Translations under genes and position numbers: made by a program
From: an uncultured bacterium
GTDB lineage: Bacteria; Acidobacteriota; HRBIN11; JAKEFK01
Reading direction: 5' to 3'
DNA: 64,000 nucleotides
NCBI GenBank assembly: GCA_963771165.1
Contig: CAVYSN010000004.1
Location: 30,114 to 94,113, forward strand
Notes under the pieces: generated by a model
Told to the model about the DNA's origin: nothing
Database searches by the model: none
What the model saw: only the letters and a program-made list of their open reading frames with translations
Part shown: positions 2,426-59,928 of the stretch, piece by piece
Layout: every line of letters begins with the position of its first letter
Numbering within the stretch: the first letter of the stretch is position 1

Positions 2426-4847
2426 TTACCTCACAACAATATTGATCAGTTTATCCGGAACGAACACGATCTTGACAATCTGCTTCCCTTCCAGCTGTCT
2501 TTGAACTTTTTCATCCTTTGTCGCCAGATCCAGGATCTGTTCCTGAGAAAAACCGCGCGGAGCAGGCATGGAAGCGCGCAGTTTTCCATTCACCTGCACC
2601 ACAATCGTCGCCTGTTCCTCCTGGGCCAGGCCGGCATTGAATTCCGGCCATGGATGCGAAGACAGAAGCCGGTCATGGCCCATAGCCGCCCAGAGAGCTT
2701 CGGTCATGTGAGGAGCAAACGGGTTCAACAAATGCAGGATGGTTTGGAGTGATTGATGCACCGTTCTTGCGGAAGGTGGATTCGATTGCTGGATCGCATC
2801 TGTGGTGGCATTCACAAGTTCCATGATCGCACTGATCGCCGTATTTTGATGCATGCGTTCATCTATATCTTGAGTCACTTTGCGCACGGTCTGATGAATC
2901 TTTCGTTCCAGCGCGCGATCCGATTCTGCATTTCCTTCCGATTTGTACTGCATGTTCTGGGAAATCAGCTTCCACACGCGATGCAAGAAACGATGCGAGC
3001 CTTCCACACCCTGATCGCTCCATTCCAGTTCCTTTTCAGGTGGGGCGGCGAAGAGGCTGAACAGCCTTACGGTGTCCGCTCCATAACGCGCGATCAGATC
3101 ATCCGGATCCACCACGTTCCCTTTCGACTTCGACATTTTGGCGCCGTCTTTGATGACCATGCCCTGCGTGAACAAACGTTGGACCGGTTCATCGAAATTA
3201 ACCATTCCCATATCGTAAAAAATTTTCGTGAAAAACCGGCAATAGATCAAATGAAGAATCGCATGCTCAACTCCACCGATGTACATATCAATCGGCATCC
3301 AGTAGCTGACAGCATCTTGATTAAACATCGCGCGATCTTCGTGAGGCGAACAGTACCGGAAAAAGTACCAGCTCGAATCCATGAAGGTATCCATCGTATC
3401 GGTGTCACGGACAGCCGGTCCGCCGCATCTGGGACACGTTACATTCACGAACTCCGGCACACGCGCCAGAGGTGATCCTTTTTCCCCGCTCAGCTCAACA
3501 TGGAGCGGCAGAAGCACAGGCAAATCTTGATCGGGAACAGGAACGATTCCATCCTTTTCACAATGAATCATCGGAATGGGAGTACCCCAGTAACGCTGCC
3601 TCGATATGCCCCAATCCTTGATTTTGAAAGTAACGGCCCCTTCGCCGAATCCCTCGCTCTCAGCAAATGCCGTCATCTGTTTCTGCGCTTCCTCACTGGT
3701 CAGTCCGCTATAAGGAGCCGCTGTTGATGAGTGTGCCGTATTCTTCTTTCGCAGCTTCACCCGCTTCGGTCGCGATCACCGGTCGCTCCGGAATTCCGTA
3801 CTTGCGCGCAAATTCCCCATCGCGAACATCGTGCGCCGGTACAGCCATAATGGCCCCTGTCCCGTAATCCATCAACACGTAATTGGCCACCCAGATCGGA
3901 ATTTTTTCCTGACTGAATGGATTGATTGCGTACACTCCTGTGAAGAAACCCTTCTTTTCAAGGTCCTCTTTGCTGTGGAGCATCTGTTCTTCTTTCAACG
4001 CCCTTGCCTGGACGAATCGCTTCCGAGTCCGGTCCGGCAATCACCGAAAGCAATGGATGCTCCGGAGCTAGTACTACAAATGTAGCACCATAAATCGTAT
4101 CGATTCGTGTTGTAAAGACGCGGATTTTCTCACGCCTGCGTTCCACGCCGAAGTCAACGTAGGCGCCGCGGCTCTTTCCGATCCAGTTCCGCTGCATCGT
4201 TAAAACTTTTTCCGGCCAGGTGGAAAGCCTGTCGAGCCCCTCCAGCAAGCGGTCCGCGTATTCTGTGATTTTGAAATACCACTGCTCCAGCTGCCGGATG
4301 GTTACTTCTGTATCGCAGCGCCAGCATCGTCCGGCAACGACCTGTTCATTTGCAAGAACGGTCTGGCAGCTCGGACACCAGTTCACATTTCCTTTCTTGC
4401 GGTAGGCAAGGCCCTTTTCGAACATGCGAATGAAAAACCACTGGTTCCACTTGTAGTATTCGCGGCTCGCAAGTCGAGACTTCCCTTTTCCAATCATAAG
4501 AAATGCCGAGAGATTTCATCTGATTGCGCATCGCCGGGATGTTTTCGATGGTCCATTTGTAGGGCTGAACTTTGTTTTTGATGGCGGCATTTTCGGCCGG
4601 CATCCCGAGCGCATCCCATCCGATCGGATGGAGCACGTTATGCCCCCGGCGTCTTTTGTAGCGCGCGATCACATCACAGATGGCGTAATTGCGCACGTGA
4701 CCCATGTGAATTTTGCCGGATGGATACGGCAGCATCGCGAGAATGTAAAACTTCGACTTCCCGGACTCTTCGCGAGCTTCAAAACGTGGCTTCCGCTTCC
4801 CAGCGCTTTTGCCACTTCCCTTCGATGTTTCTGAAATCGTAATTCAT
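2426..4847 (-). CDS. leuS: Leucine--tRNA ligase, reading frame broken at least 4 times
   Basis: The HIGH region reads [15 protein letters not shown] and KMSKS reads [14 protein letters not shown]. The N-terminus [22 protein letters not shown] starts at 4847. It appears as five ORF pieces in the track, with breaks near 4786, 4500, 4000 and 3740. Confidence 0.95.
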
Positions 4848-19526: not shown

Positions 19527-19583
19527 TAGGGGCGCAATTCATTGCGCTCGCACACGTCGGGCGCGATGAATCGCGCCCCTACT
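19527..19583. repeat. REPIN-like inverted doublet of REP-A
   Basis: gtaggggcgcaattcattgcgc ... gggcgcgatgaatcgcgcccctac. The outer 10-nt arms GTAGGGGCGC/GCGCCCCTAC are perfect complements. Confidence 0.8.
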
Positions 19584-19626
19584 AACTTCCTTTTTACCGA
19601 TTCCCCAGATTAATATTCTTCTTGTC

Positions 19627-21580
19627 ATGACCAAGTACTATGTAACAACTCCCATTTACTACATCAACGGACTACCACACATAGGGCATGCCTTTACGAC
19701 TGTGCTGTCCGATGCCATCGCCAGATATCACCGTTTACTGGGTCATGATGTTTTTTTCCTTACGGGAACAGACGAACATGGCCAGAAAGCCGAGAAAGCC
19801 GCCAGGGAACTGGAAATTTCACCGCAAGAATTGACCGACCGAATCGTTCCGACCTTCCGAGATTTATGGAAGCTTTTGAACATTTCAAACACGGACTTTA
19901 TTCGAACGACTGAAAAGAGACATCGCGAGGGTGTGGAAGAAATATTCCGGCGTTCTCATACCAACGGCGACATTTATCTTGGATCGTATGAAGGCTGGTA
20001 TTGCACTTACGATGAAAATTTTCTGACGGATGGACAACTGGTGGACGGAAAATGTCCCGACTGCCGGCGACCGGTGGAACGCATCCAAGAAGAAAGTTAC
20101 TTTTTCCGTCTCTCAAAATTCCAAGAACCTCTGCTGAACTTCTACAGAAAGAATCCTGATTTTGTCGTTCCCCGTTCCCGTTTCAATGAGGTCATCAGTT
20201 TCGTGCAAGGCGGCTTGCGCGATTTAAGCATTAGCCGCGTGAAGTTGAAATGGGGTATTCCGGTGCCGATCAATCCGGAACATGTGATCTATGTTTGGTT
20301 TGATGCCCTTTCCAACTACGTTACAGCCACGGGATTCCCAACCGACCAGGAAAAATACAAACGTTACTGGCCTGCTGACCTGCATGTGATCGGAAAAGAT
20401 ATTCTGCGATTTCATTGCGTCTACTGGCCGGCCTTTTTGCTATCTGCCGGCCTCCCGTTGCCGAAGCAAGCTCTGGTTCATGGATGGTGGCTGAAAGAAG
20501 ATGAAAAAATCTCCAAATCGCGCGGCAATGTTGTGGATCCGCATTCTTTGGTCAGCAATTTTGGAGTGGATGGACTTCGTTATTTCCTGATCCGCGAAGC
20601 GCCACTGGAAGGGGACAGCAATTATTCCTTCAACACAATTTTGAAACGGGTGAACAGCGATCTTGCAAACGATCTTGGAAATCTTGCCAGCAGAATCCTC
20701 ACAATGGTGGAACGCTATTCGGCAGGAAAAATTCCCGGTGTGGCTGCAACTCGTGCCCCTTTTCAAGATTCTCTCGAAAACATTGTGTCGCGAGTGCCTC
20801 AATATATCGCCGAGTTCACTCTGTCTCGTCTGCTCGCTGACATCTGGAGCATCGTAACAGCGATGAACAGATACATCGTTGAGGAACAACCGTGGAATCT
20901 CGCAAAAACGCCTGAGACCCGCGGGCGTCTGGAAGAGGTATTGTACAACAGCTGCGAAGGCCTGCGCATCATATGCAGGGTTGATCGCACCCGTCATTCC
21001 CGATTCCTCGGACTCGATCTGGGAACAGATCGGGTTGGGACGAACAGCTGCAAAAGCACGGATCGAGGATTTACAATGGGGCAGATTGCAGCCCGGAACC
21101 ACCATCGGCAAGATCACACCAATCTTTCCGCGCATCGAATTTAACCACCAAGACGCCAAAGTCACCAAGATCACACAGAAAAATCATTTAATCCCTGGCG
21201 AAAATGGCGATCTTGGCGCCATGGCGGTGAAAGAACCGGCAAAAGAAGAAAGTTCGGCGGATGCGACGATTGAAGACTTTCAAAAACTCGGATTGAAAGT
21301 GGGCGAGATTAAAAGCGCTGAAAAAATTAAAGGATCGAAGAAACTATTGAAGTTGAGCGTGGATCTCGGTTCGGAGACCCGGCAGCTTGTAGCCGGCATC
21401 GCGGAAGCTTACGCGGCGGAAGAATTGATCGGCAAACAGGTGATCGTTGTTTCCAATTTGAAGCCGACAAAAATCATGGGGGTTGAATCCAATGGAATGG
21501 TTCTGGCCGCCTCCATCGATGGAAAACCGGTACTCGCTTCCGTAACAGCAAAAGTCCCGAACGGAACGATTGTAAAATAA
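19627..21580 (+). CDS. metG: Methionine--tRNA ligase with C-terminal tRNA-binding domain; one frame break near 20972
   Basis: PIYYINGLPHIGHAFT is the HIGH region and KISKSRGNVVDP is KMSKS. The C-terminus reads KLLKLSVDLGSETRQLVAGIAEAY...VVSNLKPTKIMGVESNGMVLAA. Removing one nt at ~20972 gives ...LRIIAGLIAPVIP. Confidence 0.95.
21141..21230. repeat. CGCCAAG-family word-hairpin (F8) embedded in frame in the metG linker
   Basis: ttaaccaccaagacgccaaagtcaccaagatcacacag / ctggcgaaaatggcgatcttggcgccatggcggtga is translated as NHQDAKVTKITQKNHLIPGENGDLGAMAV. It has the same grammar as 277..338. Confidence 0.6.
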
Positions 21581-23233: not shown

Positions 23234-23756
23234 ATGGTTTACCGAATTCTTATAACATTTCTTCTAATACCAGCTCTCGCTTTTTCCTACACTGTTGTGC
23301 GAAAAGACGGAAAAGTTTTTTCAGGCAAGCTTGTCGTTGAAACTTCGTCGGAAATCACACTGAAGGATCAGGAAGGAGTGACAATTAAGTTCAAAAAAGA
23401 ACAAATCGATTGGGATAAGACAACGATTGAACGTCAAAAAGTGGATGAAAAGGACAGAGTACTGGACCTTTCAAGACCTCAGTCAAAGGTGGTCGAAGTC
23501 CGGCGCGTGGAGGAAGAGAAGCAAAAATGGACCGGTGATCCGATCAGCATCGATTTTAAAGACATCGACATTCGTGATCTTTTCCGCTTTCTTGCCGAAA
23601 CAGGAGAATTTGAATCTGGTCGTGGACCCTGGTGTAAAAGGAACCGTTACGATCAAGATGACCGATGTTCCGTGGGACCAAGTCCTCGATGTTATTTGCA
23701 AAATGCATGGTCTGGGTTACACAATCGATGGGAATGTTGTGAGCATCAGCAAATAA
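23234..23756 (+). CDS. Small secreted protein carrying a PilQ-type N0 domain; one frame break near 23600
   Basis: A signal peptide is followed by ISIDFKDIDIRDLFRFLAETGEF|NLVVDPGVKGTVTIKMTDVPWDQVLDVICKMHGLGYTIDGNVVSI, which resembles the secretin N0 region. Confidence 0.55.
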
Positions 23757-23767
23757 GGAGTGAAAAG

Positions 23768-24131
23768 ATGGCAAAAAAAGCTAACGTTTACTGGCGCGCC
23801 ACTTGAACGACCTGCCAGAAGGCGGTTGCTTTCTTAAAAGGTGAGCTGGGTTACAAAGATGTAAAGTTTCGAGACCTCAAAGATCAACCACTCAAGAAAA
23901 CGGAACTGCAACAGCTCGCAAAAAAAGCCGGGTGGCGTGGACAAAATTTTTTCACGAAGAGCCATAAAATACCGGACACTTGGATTGGCGGACAAGAATC
24001 TCACGGATGACCAGAAGCTGGATTGGATGTCAAAAGAATATACGTTGATCGCGCGTCCGGTCATCGACGCGGACGGGAAGGTCGTCGCCGGCTTCTCCAA
24101 ACGCAACTACACGGAGATTTTAGGATCTTAA
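23768..24131 (+). CDS. ArsC/Spx/YffB-family thioredoxin-fold protein with in-frame TGA (UxxC) and one frame break near 23930
   Basis: MAKKANVYWRAT-TGA-TTCQKAVAFLKGELGYKDVKFRDL... stays in the same frame across TGA 23804..23806. The C-terminus reads YRTLGL...LIARPVIDADGKVVAGFSKRNY. Dropping one G from GGG near 23930 restores the frame. Confidence 0.7.
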
Positions 24132-28018: not shown

Positions 28019-30570
28019 ATGACGGGCAAAACGAAAACTAGCTCAGCTTCAAAGAAAACAAAAAACGGACGGATCAAAGAACACGTACAAAAACAAACAG
28101 AAAACGATCGTGTCAATGCGATTCGAACATCATTACAAAATCATTTACTTTATACTATGGCCAAAGATCAATACTCCGCCACCAAATTAGACCTGTATAA
28201 AAGCCTTGCCGCCACGGTCAAGGACCGGCTGGTGAAACGCTGGATACAGACTCAGCAAACTTATTACAAAGTCGATGCCAAACGCATTTACTATCTCTCC
28301 CTCGAATTTCTGATGGGACGTGCTCTAGGCAACAATCTGGTGAATCTGAAAATGGTGAAGGAAGCCTACGAAGCTTTGCATCAAGCAGGACTCGATCTGG
28401 AGGAATTGCAGGAGTTGGAATGGGACGCCGGTCTTGGGAATGGCGGTCTGGGGCGACTGGCAGCCTGTTTTCTGGATTCCATGGCAACTTTGGAATTACC
28501 CGGATACGGTTATGGAATTCGCTATGAATATGGAATCTTTTATCAGCACATCCGGGATGGCCATCAAGTGGAAACGCCCGACAACTGGCTTCGTCACGGA
28601 AATGTCTGGGAGATTGAACGGCCGGAATACCTTTACACTGTAAAATTCAACGGACGGGTCGTTGAGTTTAAGGATAAAGAAGGAGTCCTGCGCTCCGAAT
28701 GGGTGGATACACAGGACGTTATGGCAATGGCGTACGACACACCCATTGCAGGCTACGGGAACAATACTGTAAATAATTTGCGTTTGTGGGCCGCAAAATC
28801 CACGCGCGAGTTTGACTTCGAATACTTTAATCACGGCGATTACATCAAAGCAGTTCAGGATAAACAAAAAACCGAGACAATCTCGAAAGTTCTCTATCCT
28901 AACGACAACGTCATTCAAGGCAAGGAACTACGTTTAAAACAGGAATACTTTTTTCAGTTCTGCGACGTTGCAAGACATCGTTCGACGATACCTAAAAACT
29001 CATGATGATTTTTCGGAGTTTTCAAGTAAGGTCGCGATTCAGTTAAACGACACTCATCCCGCCATCGCAATTCCGGAGTTGATGCGGCTCCTGGTCGATG
29101 TTTATGAAGTGCCCTGGGAGAAAGCATGGAAAATTACAATCGACACGTTCGGATATACAAACCATACGATCCTTCCCGAAGCGTTGGAAAAGTGGCCGGT
29201 TTCCATGATGGAAGCAACCTTGCCCCGCCATATGGATATCATTTACGAAATCAACAGGCGTTTTCTGGACGAAGTCAGCAAACGTTTTCCGGACGATCCT
29301 GCACGCATGGCCCGGATGTCACTGATCGAGGAAGGTGGCGACAAGCAGGTCCGCATGGCACACCTCGCCATCGTTGGCAGCCATTCGATCAACGGCGTAG
29401 CGGCGCTCCATACGGAGATTACTAAAAAAGGAACTTTTTAAGGACTTCTACGAAATGACGCCGGAAAAATTCAATAACAAAACCAACGGCATTACACAAC
29501 GCCGCTGGTTGTTGAAATGCAATCCACGGTTGTCCGATCTGATTTCAAGCGAAATCGGCGAGAAATGGGCTACGGATTTGTATGAGATGAGACAGCTGCG
29601 CCCTCTTGCATCGGATCACGCGTTTCAAGAAAAGTGGCGTGAAATCAAACGCCACAACAAAGAGGTTTTCGCCGATTATGTCGCCAGATTAACGGGCGTA
29701 AAAGCCAATCTGGATTCCATTTTCGATATTCAGGTGAAACGCATCCATGAATATAAGCGCCAGCTGATGAATGCGCTCCATGTGATCTACCTTTACAACA
29801 AGATCAAAAACAACCCGAACGATCCATTCGTACCCCGAACCAAAATCTTTGCAGGAAAAGCAGCTCCCGGTTATTTTCTGGCCAAACTCATCATTAAGCT
29901 CATCAACTCGATCGCGGATGTTGTGAACCGGGATCCGGATATCGGGGACAAATTGCGTGTTGTGTTTTTGCCGAACTATTGCGTATCCATGGCGGAAAAA
30001 ATCATGCCCGCGGCTGATTTGTCCGAACAAATATCGACTGCGGGAATGGAAGCTTCCGGAACCGGAAATATGAAATTTGCACTCAACGGAGCGCTTACAA
30101 TCGGCACTCTGGACGGCGCCAACATCGAAATCATGGAAGAAGTCGGTGAAGAAAACATTTTCATTTTTGGGCTGAACGCTGACGAAGTGAAGGGGCTAAA
30201 GAATAGCGGATACAAACCATCGGATTACTACGACAGGAATCCCGATTTGAAGAAGATTATCGACATGATCGCTTCCGGCTATTTTTCGCCGTCCAATACG
30301 GAACTGTTCAAACCGATCGTGCAATCACTTCTCAGTTTGGATCCATTTATGGTGCTTGCCGATTTCGAATCGTACGTGCGCTGCCAATCGAAAGTCTGGA
30401 AAGAATTCTTGATCCCCGATGAATGGACACGGAAAAGTATTCTTAACGTGGCAGGCATGGGAAAATTTTCCAGCGATCGCAGTATTAGTGAATACGCTCA
30501 GGAAATCTGGCACGCCAAACCCGTACCGATTGTCATGCCCGAACCCGAAGCCATTGACATTAAGCTTTAA
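28019..30570 (+). CDS. glgP: Glycogen/alpha-glucan phosphorylase, 2 frame breaks (~28975, ~29428)
   Basis: [56 protein letters not shown], and [20 protein letters not shown] (the PLP lysine region). The second break is an A6 run at 29424..29429; removing one A gives [13 protein letters not shown]. Confidence 0.95.
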
Positions 30571-36664: not shown

Positions 36665-36925
36665 TTACTTACGTTTGCTGACACCCCGGGTTTTCTTAGA
36701 TAGAAATTGCAAGGGGGGTGGTGGAGCTACGTCTTTTGCTTTTTCGACTTTTGCCTGATGCTCGAGAATCAACAGGAGGTTGTCCCTATCCGAAACCTCA
36801 TGGTTCCAGATAAAGCCACAGGATTCACATTTTGCCATTCGAACGCTGATCGTCTCCAGACGATCAGACATACAGACCGGACAGGCAAGTCCCGGCCTTT
36901 CTTTTGCCTTGGTTGCTGCTTTCAT
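36665..36925 (-). CDS. Small zinc-ribbon protein
   Basis: MKAATKAKERPGLACPVCMSDRLE...AKCESCGF carries CPxC...CxxC. The start is trimmed from the 156-aa ORF. Confidence 0.4.
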   Translation of the reverse strand: MKAATKAKERPGLACPVCMSDRLETISVRMAKCESCGFIWNHEVSDRDNLLLILEHQAKVEKAKDVAPPPPLQFLSKKTRGVSKRK

Positions 36926-37003
36926 CACCTTAAAGATAGGTTCCGAGAGGGCTCTCGTCAATTTTTCAGGAACTGTGATATAGTCTCTCGAGGAGGTCTC
37001 CGA

Positions 37004-37627
37004 ATGGCTGAAACCCGATGGTACCTGTCTGTTGATGGTCAACAAGAGGGGGATTTCTCTCTCGATGATATTCGAGCGAAGATTCAAAAGAATCAAGGTC
37101 GCCGCGTTCTCGTCTGGACCCAAGGGATGTCGCAATGGGCTGATCCCGCCGATCTACCCCAATTCAAAGCTGCTCCTGCCCCTGCACCGGCTCCTGCGCC
37201 CGCGCCCGCTCCCATTCCTTCTCCGTCGCCCGCAGCGGTTTCTCCGGATGAACGGCCTGTATCAACAAAGATTGATAAGGATGCCATCAAGCAGCAGGCT
37301 GGTATTCTGAAAAGTCTGCTCGATTTTAAGTTTCAGCATTTTGTGACCGGAAAGATCATCCCTGTGATTTACATGATCTTAATCATCGTCATTGCACTTC
37401 TGGTTGTCGGCGCTGTCGTCGTTAGCGGTTTTTGGGGACTCATCACAGCCATCCGTTTCGAAAGCTTCACGATGGCGATGACCGCACTCGGCACGATCAT
37501 TCTTGCGCCACTCATTGGAATTCTGTACATTGCTTTGATTCGTCTCTGGTTTGAATTCATGATCATTATTTTCCGAATCAAAGAGGATCTGACAACTCTC
37601 GTAGATAGATCGGAAACAAAGAAGTAG
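37004..37627 (+). CDS. GYF_2 (DUF4339) plus DUF4282 membrane protein with a PA/PS-rich linker
   Basis: AGGAGG lies 8 nt upstream. WYLSVDGQQEGDFSLDDIRAKI...VLVWTQGMSQWADPADLPQF is followed by (AP)n and LLDFKFQHFVTGKIIPVIY. Confidence 0.7.
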   Translation: MAETRWYLSVDGQQEGDFSLDDIRAKIQKNQGRRVLVWTQGMSQWADPADLPQFKAAPAPAPAPAPAPAPIPSPSPAAVSPDERPVSTKIDKDAIKQQAGILKSLLDFKFQHFVTGKIIPVIYMILIIVIALLVVGAVVVSGFWGLITAIRFESFTMAMTALGTIILAPLIGILYIALIRLWFEFMIIIFRIKEDLTTLVDRSETKK

Positions 37628-58965: not shown

Positions 58966-59928
58966 GTGGAATTGCTGGACAAGTACGGTTACAGTCTAGT
59001 TTTTGTAGTTGCACTACTGGAACAATTAGGATTACCGCTCCCAGTTGCGCCGGTGCTTCTTTTAGGTGGCGCTGTTGCCGCAAGTGGTAAATTATCGTTT
59101 ACAACCCTTGTCGTTTTTGCCGTTCTTGCCGCATTGATCGGAGACATTGTCTGGTACCATCTCGGCAGGCAGAAGGGGCGCAGTGTCCTCAAAATACTGT
59201 GCCATCTATCGTTGAGTCCTGAGACATGCGTTAAGAAGACAGAAGAAAGTTTTTTAAAGCACGGGATGAATTCGTTGCTGTTTGCGAAATTTGTTCCGGG
59301 GTTGAATACAATTGCTCCCCCAATGGCCGGTTTGGTTGGATCCCGTTTCGTTTCCTTTCTGTGGCGCGATCTGATCGGCGCCCTGGTATACGTTCTCGCC
59401 TTTCTGATCCCCGGTTATTTTCTTGAAAAAAGTATTTTTCACATTACAACTCTCTTCGAACAGCTGGGACGAACCTTTTTCTGGCTGCTTGTAGTATCAC
59501 TGATTGGTTACTTATTCATCAAATACATCAAGCTGAAACTGTTGCAGAAGCTTCTTTACAAGGAACGAATCACTCCGGAAGAACTTCATGAACGAATCCA
59601 CGCAGGAGAAGCTGTCATCATTGTGGATATTCGCTCAAACATCCCGACCGATTTGGATGCCGGATTTATTCCCGGGGCGATCCGCATTCCACCGGACGAG
59701 ATCGATGAGCATATGCATCGTCTGGATAAGGAACGATGGATTGTCATGTATTGTACGTGACCCAACGAATTCACAAGTGCCCGTGTGGCAAAGCTACTGT
59801 TCGATCGAGGTTATCAGAAAGTAAGACCTTTGCTGGGTGGATACGACGCGTGGGTGAACGCAGGATTCCCTGTTGAACCTTATCAACCTTCGTTGAAATC
59901 ACATGAAGAAACCAAAAACGCCTCCTGA
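58966..59928 (+). CDS. DedA (VTT/SNARE-associated) membrane domain fused to a rhodanese domain; in-frame TGA in the rhodanese active-site loop
   Basis: The DedA motifs are LEQLGLPLPV, GDIVWYHLGR and LFAKFVPGLNTIAPP. The rhodanese reads IIVDIRS...WIVMYCT-TGA-PNEFTSARVAKLLFDRGYQKVRPLLGGYDAWVNAGFPVE and stays in the same frame on both sides of 59758..59760. Confidence 0.8.

What the first reader, a model, noticed from the sequence alone, without database searches (positions are those of the whole stretch)
23804..23806. In-frame TGA at the first cysteine of the CxxC motif of an ArsC/Spx-family gene: a candidate UxxC selenoprotein
The ORF starts at ATG 23768 and reads MAKKANVYWRAT-TGA-TTCQKAVAFLKGELGYKDVKFRDL in a single frame.

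In the ArsC/Spx/YffB family, the N-terminal beta-strand is followed by a CxxC motif; E. coli YffB has YGIKNCDTCKKA. Here the first Cys position is the TGA, giving U-T-T-C, the classical selenoprotein redox motif.

There is no alternative start downstream of the TGA. An interrupted 8-bp hairpin with an AGAA loop and a bulged C (23808..23828) begins 2 nt after the TGA, where a bacterial SECIS would be expected.

The sequence errors I resolved in this window are indels, not substitutions. A second redox-site TGA occurs at 59758.
Basis: partly seen in the sequence, partly recalled or inferred. Interest (0 to 1): 0.75.

Follow-up and report, generated by a model that had tools for sequence, protein, structure and literature searches.

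The report
Selenocysteine codon in an ArsC-like gene
The in-frame TGA in this small ArsC/Spx-family redox gene almost certainly encodes selenocysteine, but selenocysteine forms of this protein family are already catalogued, so it is a correct and fairly ordinary finding.

Summary
ATG 23768 opens an ArsC-family gene (PF03960) with an in-frame TGA at 23804-23806, giving U-T-T-C.

Evidence for selenocysteine:
- Six distinct orthologues from independent assemblies carry TGA in the same codon. They include an Acidobacteriota MAG, a Tectomicrobia MAG and JGI/ENA metagenome contigs.
- The peptide upstream of the TGA is conserved, and codon differences there are often synonymous.
- 68 more distant homologues have TGC or TGT at this column.
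- TGA is the commonest ordinary stop in the window.
- A second gene in the window, a DedA-rhodanese fusion with TGA at 59758, shows the same Sec/Cys pattern.

Its loop starts only 10 nt after the UGA, it is not conserved in orthologues, and Cys forms have it equally often. An overlapping hairpin at 23817-23834 (7 bp, GGUU loop, 17 nt after UGA) fits the bacterial SECIS model. It is kept with two covarying pairs in all Sec forms.

The gene also carries a one-base insertion within 23927-23933, which looks like an assembly error. No Sec machinery lies in the window.

UxxC ArsC-like selenoproteins are a known family (NF041106; the ocean-sampling selenoproteome). This clade scores below that model's cut-off, so I call it a new member of a known kind. 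Interest is about 0.3.

The parts
23755..23760 (+). Shine-Dalgarno AAGGAG, 7 nt upstream of the ATG
   Evidence: Read directly from the sequence. Orthologues L001 and L003 have AAGGAGG or GGAG at the same place.
23768..24131 (+). ArsC/Spx-family gene encoding about 120 residues, with an in-frame TGA and one frameshifting extra base
   Evidence: Translations. PF03960 match E = 1.8e-15. Orthologues are 78-84% identical. Stop codon TAA at 24129-24131.
23804..23806 (+). TGA, inferred selenocysteine codon (residue 13, the U of U-T-T-C)
   Evidence: TGA is at the same codon in L001, L003, L004, L005, L008, L092 and L093. 68 homologues have TGC or TGT there. The column aligns with the first Cys of the CxxC in Spx 3L78 and in 2M46.
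23813..23815 (+). TGC, Cys16, the inferred resolving cysteine of the UxxC motif
   Evidence: Invariant column C16 in alignment A1.
23817..23834 (+). Preferred SECIS candidate: stem AGAAGGC (23817-23823) with GCTTTCT (23828-23834), loop GGTT (23824-23827)
   Evidence: The loop starts 17 nt after the UGA. 92.9% of cells pair in six distinct Sec forms, with two pairs changed on both sides. All six core pairs are present in 6/6 Sec forms and 1/68 Cys forms. Folding energy is -7.5 kcal/mol.
23808..23828 (+).
   Evidence: -10.5 kcal/mol in the window. Only 72.9% paired across Sec forms, no better than shuffles. Equally common in Cys forms.
23927..23933 (+). One extra base (GCCGGGT here, GCAGGC in orthologues) causing a +1 frameshift; probably an assembly error
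   Evidence: Alignment A4. Other genes in the window are also split by frameshifts, for example glycogen phosphorylase in three pieces at 28019-30567.
58966..59928 (+). Second selenoprotein candidate: DedA plus rhodanese fusion, TGA at 59758-59760 in MYCT-U-PNEFTSAR, stop TGA at 59926-59928
   Evidence: Homologues have Cys at this column or gene calls that end exactly there. In-frame TGA with conserved read-through in L094 and L096. Best NCBIfam hit is NF041203 rhodanese-related (seleno)protein.

Best explanation
The gene at 23768-24131 encodes a roughly 120-residue thioredoxin-fold protein of the ArsC/Spx/YffB family. Its redox motif is U-T-T-C.

**Decoding (inferred).** The TGA at 23804-23806 is decoded as selenocysteine. 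SelB carrying Sec-tRNA(Sec) would be recruited by an mRNA hairpin inside the coding sequence. The most likely hairpin is the 7-bp stem with a GGUU loop at 23817-23834, 17 nt after the UGA. It is encoded by the codons for Q-K-A-V-A-F-L at the start of helix alpha-1.

**Chemistry (inferred by analogy).** By analogy with CxxC thioredoxin-fold proteins, Sec13 is the attacking nucleophile and Cys16 resolves it by forming a selenenylsulfide. The protein would then be a selenol/thiol oxidoreductase. Its substrate is unknown.

**What is shown.** Family membership, TGA conserved in orthologues, Cys in all other homologues, coding conservation upstream of the TGA, and a conserved, covarying hairpin restricted to the Sec forms.

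**What is inferred.** That Sec is actually inserted, which hairpin binds SelB, and the redox chemistry.

**The frameshift.** The one-base frameshift near 23930 is taken to be an assembly error.
For: **Family**
- PF03960 match, E = 1.8e-15.
- PDB alignments place the TGA column on the first Cys of the CxxC in Spx 3L78 and in 2M46.

**Orthologues**
- Close orthologues are called as 98-aa proteins that start just after the TGA.
- Their DNA shows an in-frame TGA preceded by KKANVYWR(S/A)x.
- In the 9 codons before the TGA, the close orthologues L001, L003 and L005 differ from the window by 3-4 synonymous and 2 non-synonymous changes. The more distant L008, L092 and L093 differ by 1-3 synonymous and 4-5 non-synonymous changes.
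- Further TGA forms occur in a Tectomicrobia MAG (L008, 57% identical) and in JGI metagenome contigs L092 and L093.
- 68 other homologues have TGC or TGT.

**Hairpin 23817-23834**
- 92.9% of cells pair, and two pairs vary among G-C, G-U and A-U.
- All six core pairs are present in 6/6 Sec forms against 1/68 Cys forms.
- A 4-nt loop with G in its first two positions, a 7-bp stem, 17-nt spacing and -7.5 kcal/mol meet the published bacterial SECIS constraints (PMC13188914).

**Genetic code and second gene**
- TGA is the commonest ordinary stop in the window (30 of 52 ORFs of at least 200 aa), so the code is not reassigned.
- A second gene in the window (TGA 59758) shows the same Sec/Cys pattern.

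**Wider family**
- Other ArsC-subfamily genes have TGA at the same column (L087, L089, L097). L087 and L089 have strong downstream hairpins with AGUU or GGU loops.
Against: - No selA, selB, selD or tRNA-Sec was found in the 64-kb window, so Sec decoding by this organism is not shown directly. The ORF check was incomplete: part of the output was cut, and only 26.9-36.5 kb of the missing stretch was then scanned.
- The preferred hairpin is weak. It folds to -7.1 to -7.8 kcal/mol with z only -1.0 to -1.8.
- The motif K-A-V-A-F is self-complementary at the codon level, and one Cys form with the same peptide (L083) folds the same way.
- The Sec forms make a single clade in a rough NJ tree. The 6/6 against 1/68 contrast is therefore not six independent events.
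- The gene in this window carries a frameshift. If the frameshift is real, this copy is a pseudogene.
- Rfam gave no match.
Confidence: 0.88

Rival explanations
1. The gene copy in this genome is a pseudogene. The frameshift near 23930 is real, so no full-length protein is made here, even though the orthologues are genuine selenoprotein genes.
For: One extra base relative to three orthologues. Frame 1 runs into a TGA at 24008.
Against: Essential or housekeeping genes in the same window are also split by frameshifts. Glycogen phosphorylase is in three pieces, and leuS and metG are in overlapping ORFs. Apart from that base the sequence is conserved through to the stop codon.
Confidence: 0.06
2. 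The TGA is a true stop. The 12 codons upstream are a short leader or non-coding, and a truncated protein without the CxxC motif starts downstream, as gene callers annotated for the orthologues (98 aa, TTG start).
For: Gene callers produced 98-aa proteins for P0001-P0004.
Against: - The orthologues' TTG start is TTA in the window, and there is no in-frame start until GTG 23937.
- The truncated product would lack strand beta-1 and the redox motif.
- The upstream peptide, its reading frame and its Shine-Dalgarno site are conserved, with synonymous changes among the close orthologues.
- Cys homologues read straight through the same column.
Confidence: 0.03
3. The TGA is a sequencing or assembly substitution error for TGC or TGT.
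For: The window comes from an error-prone assembly.
Against: The errors seen are indels. The same TGA is present in at least six distinct sequences from independent projects, including k-mer assemblies named k127 and k141.
Confidence: 0.01
4. The TGA is decoded as Sec, but the SelB-binding element is the reader's hairpin at 23808-23828, or another structure, rather than 23817-23834.
For: In the window this hairpin is the most stable local structure (-10.5 kcal/mol, z = -3.0). Its AGAA loop has a G at position 2.
Against: - The loop begins 10 nt after the UGA, outside the 16-37 nt range of the bacterial SECIS model (PMC13188914).
- Two outer pairs are broken in most orthologues, and 72.9% pairing equals the shuffled expectation.
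- It is not enriched in Sec forms: 36 of 68 Cys forms pair it at least as well as the weakest Sec form.
Confidence: 0.15

Closest known systems
Arsenate reductase-like (ArsC family) UxxC selenoprotein: NCBIfam NF041106 'ArsC family (seleno)protein'; 'Arsenate reductase 2, cd03032, UxxC' of the ocean-sampling selenoproteome (PMC2398784); 'ArsC-like' selenoproteins of Desulfotalea and Desulfuromonas (PMC1794560)
   Same: Same Pfam family (PF03960). Sec is at the first position of the UxxC motif after strand beta-1. Cys-containing homologues are the majority. The family was predicted by the same Sec/Cys-pair logic.
   Different: The window protein scores only 29.6 bits against NF041106, whose cut-off is 85. 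Its clade-mates score 22-38 bits. It therefore belongs to a different subfamily, with the motif C/U-[TS]-T-C-Q-K-A-V. The closest labelled genomes are Acidobacteriota and Tectomicrobia MAGs rather than marine or deltaproteobacterial sources.
Spx/MgsR family (TIGR01617) redox-sensing RNA-polymerase-binding regulators
   Same: This is the best-scoring curated model (65.6 bits). The CxxC sits at the same place, and the alignment to Spx structures 3L78 and 1Z3E runs over about 105 residues.
   Different: The score is below the cut-off of 75.05. The protein is about 120 aa and lacks the Spx C-terminal extension (Spx is about 131 aa). RNA-polymerase binding was not tested.
Glutaredoxin-coupled arsenate reductase ArsC (R773 type, TIGR00014; PDB 1I9D)
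   Same: Same fold and family. The catalytic Cys12 of ArsC corresponds to the Sec column.
   Different: 40.1 bits against a cut-off of 106. ArsC has C-x-x-S rather than C-x-x-C. No ars operon lies nearby. Arsenate reduction is not implied.
E. coli fdhF-type bacterial SECIS
   Same: A coding-region hairpin just 3' of the UGA. From my own memory of the fdhF sequence, not checked with a tool: its small apical loop is GGUC (GGUU here) and lies about 18 nt from the UGA (17 nt here).
   Different: The stem is much shorter and weaker (7 bp, -7.5 kcal/mol). No bulged U is evident. Binding to SelB is untested.

Membership tests
ArsC/Spx/YffB family (Pfam PF03960) | Profile match above the gathering threshold over the whole domain | tested here: met
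   57.5 bits against a cut-off of 24, residues 8-116 on profile positions 1-78 of 79.
ArsC/Spx/YffB family (Pfam PF03960) | Redox or catalytic Cys directly after strand beta-1, at the start of helix alpha-1 (CxxC or CxxS) | tested here: met
   The TGA column aligns with the first Cys of CTSC in Spx 3L78 and of CTTC in 2M46. C13 and C16 are invariant in A1.
NF041106 ArsC family (seleno)protein | Score at or above the curated cut-off (85 bits) | tested here: not met
   29.6 bits. Clade-mates L092 and L093 score 38.4 and 22.1 bits.
Spx/MgsR family (TIGR01617) | Score at or above the curated cut-off (75.05 bits) | tested here: not met
   65.6 bits.
Glutaredoxin-dependent arsenate reductase (TIGR00014) | Score at or above the curated cut-off (106.05 bits) | tested here: not met
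   40.1 bits.
Bacterial selenoprotein (generic) | In-frame UGA conserved among orthologues, with coding conservation on both sides | tested here: met
   Six distinct sequences carry it. Synonymous changes occur upstream of the TGA, most clearly in the close orthologues.
Bacterial selenoprotein (generic) | Homologues with Cys aligned to the UGA | tested here: met
   68 of 68 non-TGA homologues have TGC or TGT.
Bacterial selenoprotein (generic) | Bacterial SECIS: loop of 3-9 nt, stem of 4-16 bp, G in the first two loop positions, 16-37 nt from the UGA, MFE at or below -7.5 kcal/mol (PMC13188914) | tested here: met
Hairpin 23817-23834 has a GGUU loop, a 7-bp stem, 17-nt spacing and -7.5 kcal/mol, which is borderline.
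Bacterial selenoprotein (generic) | selA, selB, selC (tRNA-Sec) and selD in the same genome | not testable with these tools
   None was found in the 64-kb window, although the ORF check was incomplete. The rest of the genome is not available. A window protein was not found in the contig index.
Bacterial selenoprotein (generic) | Selenium shown in the protein (75Se labelling or mass spectrometry) | not testable with these tools
   This needs an experiment.
NF041203 rhodanese-related (seleno)protein, CxU (second gene, 58966-59928) | Score at or above the cut-off (115 bits) and a C-x-U motif in the active-site loop | tested here: inconclusive
   It is the best hit, but at 91.2 bits it is below 115. 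The motif MYCT-U is present, and homologues show Cys/TGA pairs.

The most novel reading that the evidence does not exclude
The clade with the motif U-[TSNG]-T-C-Q-K-A-V-A-F-L may be a distinct Sec-containing subfamily of ArsC/Spx-like proteins that current curated models miss. It is found so far in Acidobacteriota and Tectomicrobia MAGs and in soil and sediment metagenomes. Its SECIS would be built from the codons of the first helix. It might act as an Spx-like redox sensor that uses a selenenylsulfide switch, rather than as a plain reductase.
Probability: 0.12. Interest if true: 0.5.

Novelty: new member of a known kind. Interest (0 to 1): 0.3.

Why it matters
**Annotation.** Gene callers truncated every orthologue to 98 aa, and no curated NCBIfam model reaches its cut-off for this clade. 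These genes are therefore likely to be annotated as short ArsC-family fragments or as pseudogenes. Recognising the Sec codon restores the redox motif.

**Organism.** Two Sec/Cys genes within 36 kb mark this organism as a Sec user. Its nearest labelled relative is an Acidobacteriota MAG.

**SECIS evolution.** The case is a clean small example of how a SECIS constrains protein sequence. A-F-L is invariant in Sec forms, while the same positions vary freely in Cys forms.

**Limits.** It does not change what is known about selenoproteins. The family and the motif are already listed in reviews of the prokaryotic selenoproteome.

Tried and rejected
- **tRNA scan of the window** found nothing.
- **Rfam** gave no match, either at gathering thresholds over the whole window or at E up to 10 on 23740-23900. 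I do not recall a general bacterial SECIS model in Rfam (my recollection, not checked), so this says little.
- **Search for selA, selB and selD** used stop-to-stop ORF translations and an NCBIfam scan of 26.9-36.5 kb. None was seen. Part of the output was cut, so not every ORF was read.
P0001 was used instead.
- **Truncated gene calls as a proxy for Sec forms** proved unreliable. Of two sampled, L097 is a genuine TGA form, but L098 is a Cys form with a mis-called start.
- **Exact-protein lookup** of a window gene (nth), meant to identify the source record, found nothing.
- **Neighbouring genes** of the Sec forms in L008, L092, L093, L087 and L089 show no shared context that hints at a substrate.
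- **Scan for further TGA-interrupted ORFs** with C/U motifs gave only the two known cases as credible.
- **Whole-region folding** of 57 nt after the TGA is not better than shuffles (z = -0.53).
- **Fisher test** on hairpin pairing (p = 2e-6) is not taken at face value, because the Sec forms are one clade.

Full report
**1. What is in the sequence**

Frame 1 then degenerates and hits a TGA at 24008. The next frame carries a clean continuation, GVDKIFSRRAIKYRTLGLADKNLTDDQKLDWMSKEYTLIARPVIDADGKVVAGFSKRNYTEILGS, ending at TAA 24129-24131.

Alignment with three orthologues shows a single extra base within 23927-23933: GCCGGGT in the window against GCAGGC. The window contains other genes split by frameshifts. 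Glycogen phosphorylase is in three pieces at 28019-30567, and leuS and metG appear as overlapping ORFs. I therefore treat the frameshift as an assembly indel.

The repaired 120-residue protein matches Pfam ArsC (PF03960, E = 1.8e-15, 57.5 bits against a cut-off of 24). No ATG, GTG or TTG follows the TGA in frame until GTG 23937.

**2. Comparative evidence for the TGA**

A search of 5.8 billion proteins returned two classes of homologue.
- Four close homologues (77-82% identical) are all called as 98-aa proteins beginning MKEELGY, just downstream of the TGA column.
- Six more distant homologues (42-47%) are full length and carry C-[ST]-T-C-Q-K-A-V.

The DNA upstream of the truncated calls shows an in-frame TGA at the same codon:
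- MSKKANVYWRSG-TGA-STCQKAVAFL in L001, from the NCBI Acidobacteriota MAG GCA_046714535.1.
- VPKKANVYWRSS-TGA-TTCQKAVAFL in L003 and L004.
- MPKKANVYWRSS-TGA-STCQKAVAFL in L005.

In the nine codons before the TGA, these close orthologues differ from the window by 3-4 synonymous and 2 non-synonymous changes. This is what a translated region looks like. The more distant Sec forms L008, L092 and L093 differ by 1-3 synonymous and 4-5 non-synonymous changes.

A scan of one genome per species found 80 loci.
- The nearest is the same Acidobacteriota MAG.
- A Candidatus Tectomicrobia MAG (L008, 57% identical) also has TGA: VYWVPT-TGA-NTCQKAVAFL.
- All the rest have TGC (51) or TGT (16).

A pattern scan of metagenome contigs added more TGA forms.
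- Two belong to the same clade (L092, L093).
- Two belong to other ArsC subfamilies (L087, L089).
- A sampled truncated representative (L097) is a further U-T-S-C form. It lies next to a peroxiredoxin gene that also has an in-frame TGA.

TGA terminates 30 of 52 long ORFs in the window. The organism therefore does not read TGA as a sense codon in general.

**3. The recoding signal**

Three results count against it as the SECIS.
- Its loop begins only 10 nt after the UGA.
- Across six distinct Sec forms only 72.9% of cells pair, which equals the shuffled expectation. The two outer pairs are broken in most sequences.
- It is formed by the codons for T-C-Q-K-A-V, and 36 of 68 Cys forms pair it at least as well as the weakest Sec form.

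An overlapping hairpin at 23817-23834, AGAAGGC[GGUU]GCUUUCU, fits better.
- It starts its loop 17 nt after the UGA.
- 92.9% of its cells pair, and two pairs vary among G-C, G-U and A-U.
- All six core pairs are present in 6/6 Sec forms but in only 1/68 Cys forms.

It meets the published bacterial SECIS constraints (PMC13188914): a loop of 3-9 nt, a stem of 4-16 bp, G in the first two loop positions, 16-37 nt spacing, and MFE at or below -7.5 kcal/mol. It only just reaches the energy limit, at -7.5 kcal/mol.

At the protein level, A-F-L after Q-K-A-V is invariant in the Sec forms. Cys forms show Y, H, R, F, W or L at the F column.

Three caveats apply.
- K-A-V-A-F is self-complementary at the codon level, and the one Cys form with that peptide (L083) folds alike.
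- The Sec forms are a single clade in a rough NJ tree, so the contrast is not six independent events.
- Binding to SelB is untested.

L087 and L089 have much stronger hairpins downstream of their TGA, with AGUU or GGU loops.

**4. Does the organism decode Sec?**

No tRNA, no Rfam family and no selA, selB or selD were found in the 64-kb window. The ORF check was incomplete, and the rest of the genome is not available to me.

There is independent support inside the window. The ORF at 58966 is a DedA membrane domain fused to a rhodanese domain. It reads ...RWIVMYCT-TGA-PNEFTSARVAKLLFDRGYQKVRPLLGGYDAWVNAGFPVEP, with a stop at 59926-59928.
- Homologues have Cys at that column (YCTCPNE, YCSCPNE), or their gene calls stop exactly at YCT.
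- Two of the latter, L094 and L096, have an in-frame TGA with conserved read-through.
- The best curated model is NF041203 'rhodanese-related (seleno)protein', at 91.2 bits against a cut-off of 115.

Two Sec/Cys genes in one window make a Sec-decoding organism the economical reading.

**5. Mechanism**

PDB alignments put the TGA column on the first Cys of the CxxC of Spx (3L78) and of the putative arsenate reductase 2M46. This is the nucleophilic position at the start of helix alpha-1 in thioredoxin-fold proteins. I infer a Sec13 nucleophile and a Cys16 resolving residue that form a selenenylsulfide.

The substrate is unknown. Gene neighbourhoods differ between lineages. The protein fails the curated cut-offs for arsenate reductase (40.1 against 106), Spx/MgsR (65.6 against 75.05) and NF041106 (29.6 against 85).

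**6. Comparison with what is known**

ArsC-like selenoproteins have been described several times.
- They were reported in Desulfotalea and Desulfuromonas (PMC1794560).
- The ocean-sampling selenoproteome lists 'Arsenate reductase (ArsC) 1, UxxS' and 'Arsenate reductase 2, cd03032, UxxC', the latter with 42 Sec and 238 Cys sequences (PMC2398784).
- Reviews from 2022 and 2026 list 'Arsenate reductase-like protein, UxxC'. The 2026 review assigns it NF041106, and the 2022 review gives COG1393.
- The same reviews list a CxU rhodanese form. The 2026 review gives NF041203, and the 2022 review gives COG0607 (PMC9312934, PMC13188914).
- Acidobacteria were already known to hold selenoproteins (PMC1794560).

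The finding is therefore a correct identification of a new member, probably a separate subfamily, of a known kind of selenoprotein.

**7. Verdict**

- The Sec interpretation is supported, with confidence about 0.88.
- The frameshift is probably an artefact.
- Novelty is a new member of a known kind, and interest is about 0.3.

Noticed in passing
window 58966-59928 (TGA 59758-59760): A DedA membrane domain is fused to a rhodanese domain, with an in-frame TGA in the loop MYCT-U-PNEFTSAR. Homologues have Cys there or carry a TGA with conserved read-through. The best model is NF041203 rhodanese-related (seleno)protein, below its cut-off. I did not check whether the DedA fusion has been described for that family.
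   Followed up: yes
window 28019-30567; also 2429-4843, 19570-21577 and many other overlapping same-strand ORF pairs: Housekeeping genes are broken by frameshifts: glycogen phosphorylase in three pieces, and leuS and metG as overlapping ORFs. This indicates an indel-prone assembly. The upstream neighbour of the ArsC-like gene (23234-23756; its orthologues match an STN/GspD-N0 domain) is also split.
   Followed up: partly
L097 327-1178: A Logan contig carries an ArsC-like gene with U-T-S-C (VEFYWRST-TGA-TSCVKA). Immediately after it lies a peroxiredoxin gene with its own in-frame TGA (FYPFDWSPG-TGA-TKEMPAL). This is a pair of adjacent selenoprotein candidates.
   Followed up: partly
L087 269 and L089 1488 (oriented as): Two more divergent ArsC-family genes (26-40% identical to the window clade) have TGA at the same column. 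Strong GC-rich hairpins with AGUU or GGU loops lie about 20 nt downstream. None of the proteins I tested reaches the NF041106 cut-off.
   Followed up: partly
L098 541-912: This Cys-form homologue (MKKIYYLSTCSTCRKIL...) was called by the gene finder from an internal start, losing its CxxC. N-terminally short gene calls in this family are therefore not a reliable proxy for Sec forms.
   Followed up: yes
window 36704-37624: This ORF has a proline/alanine repeat (APAPAPAPAPAPIPSPSP) between an N-terminal domain and C-terminal transmembrane-like segments. It was not examined.
   Followed up: no
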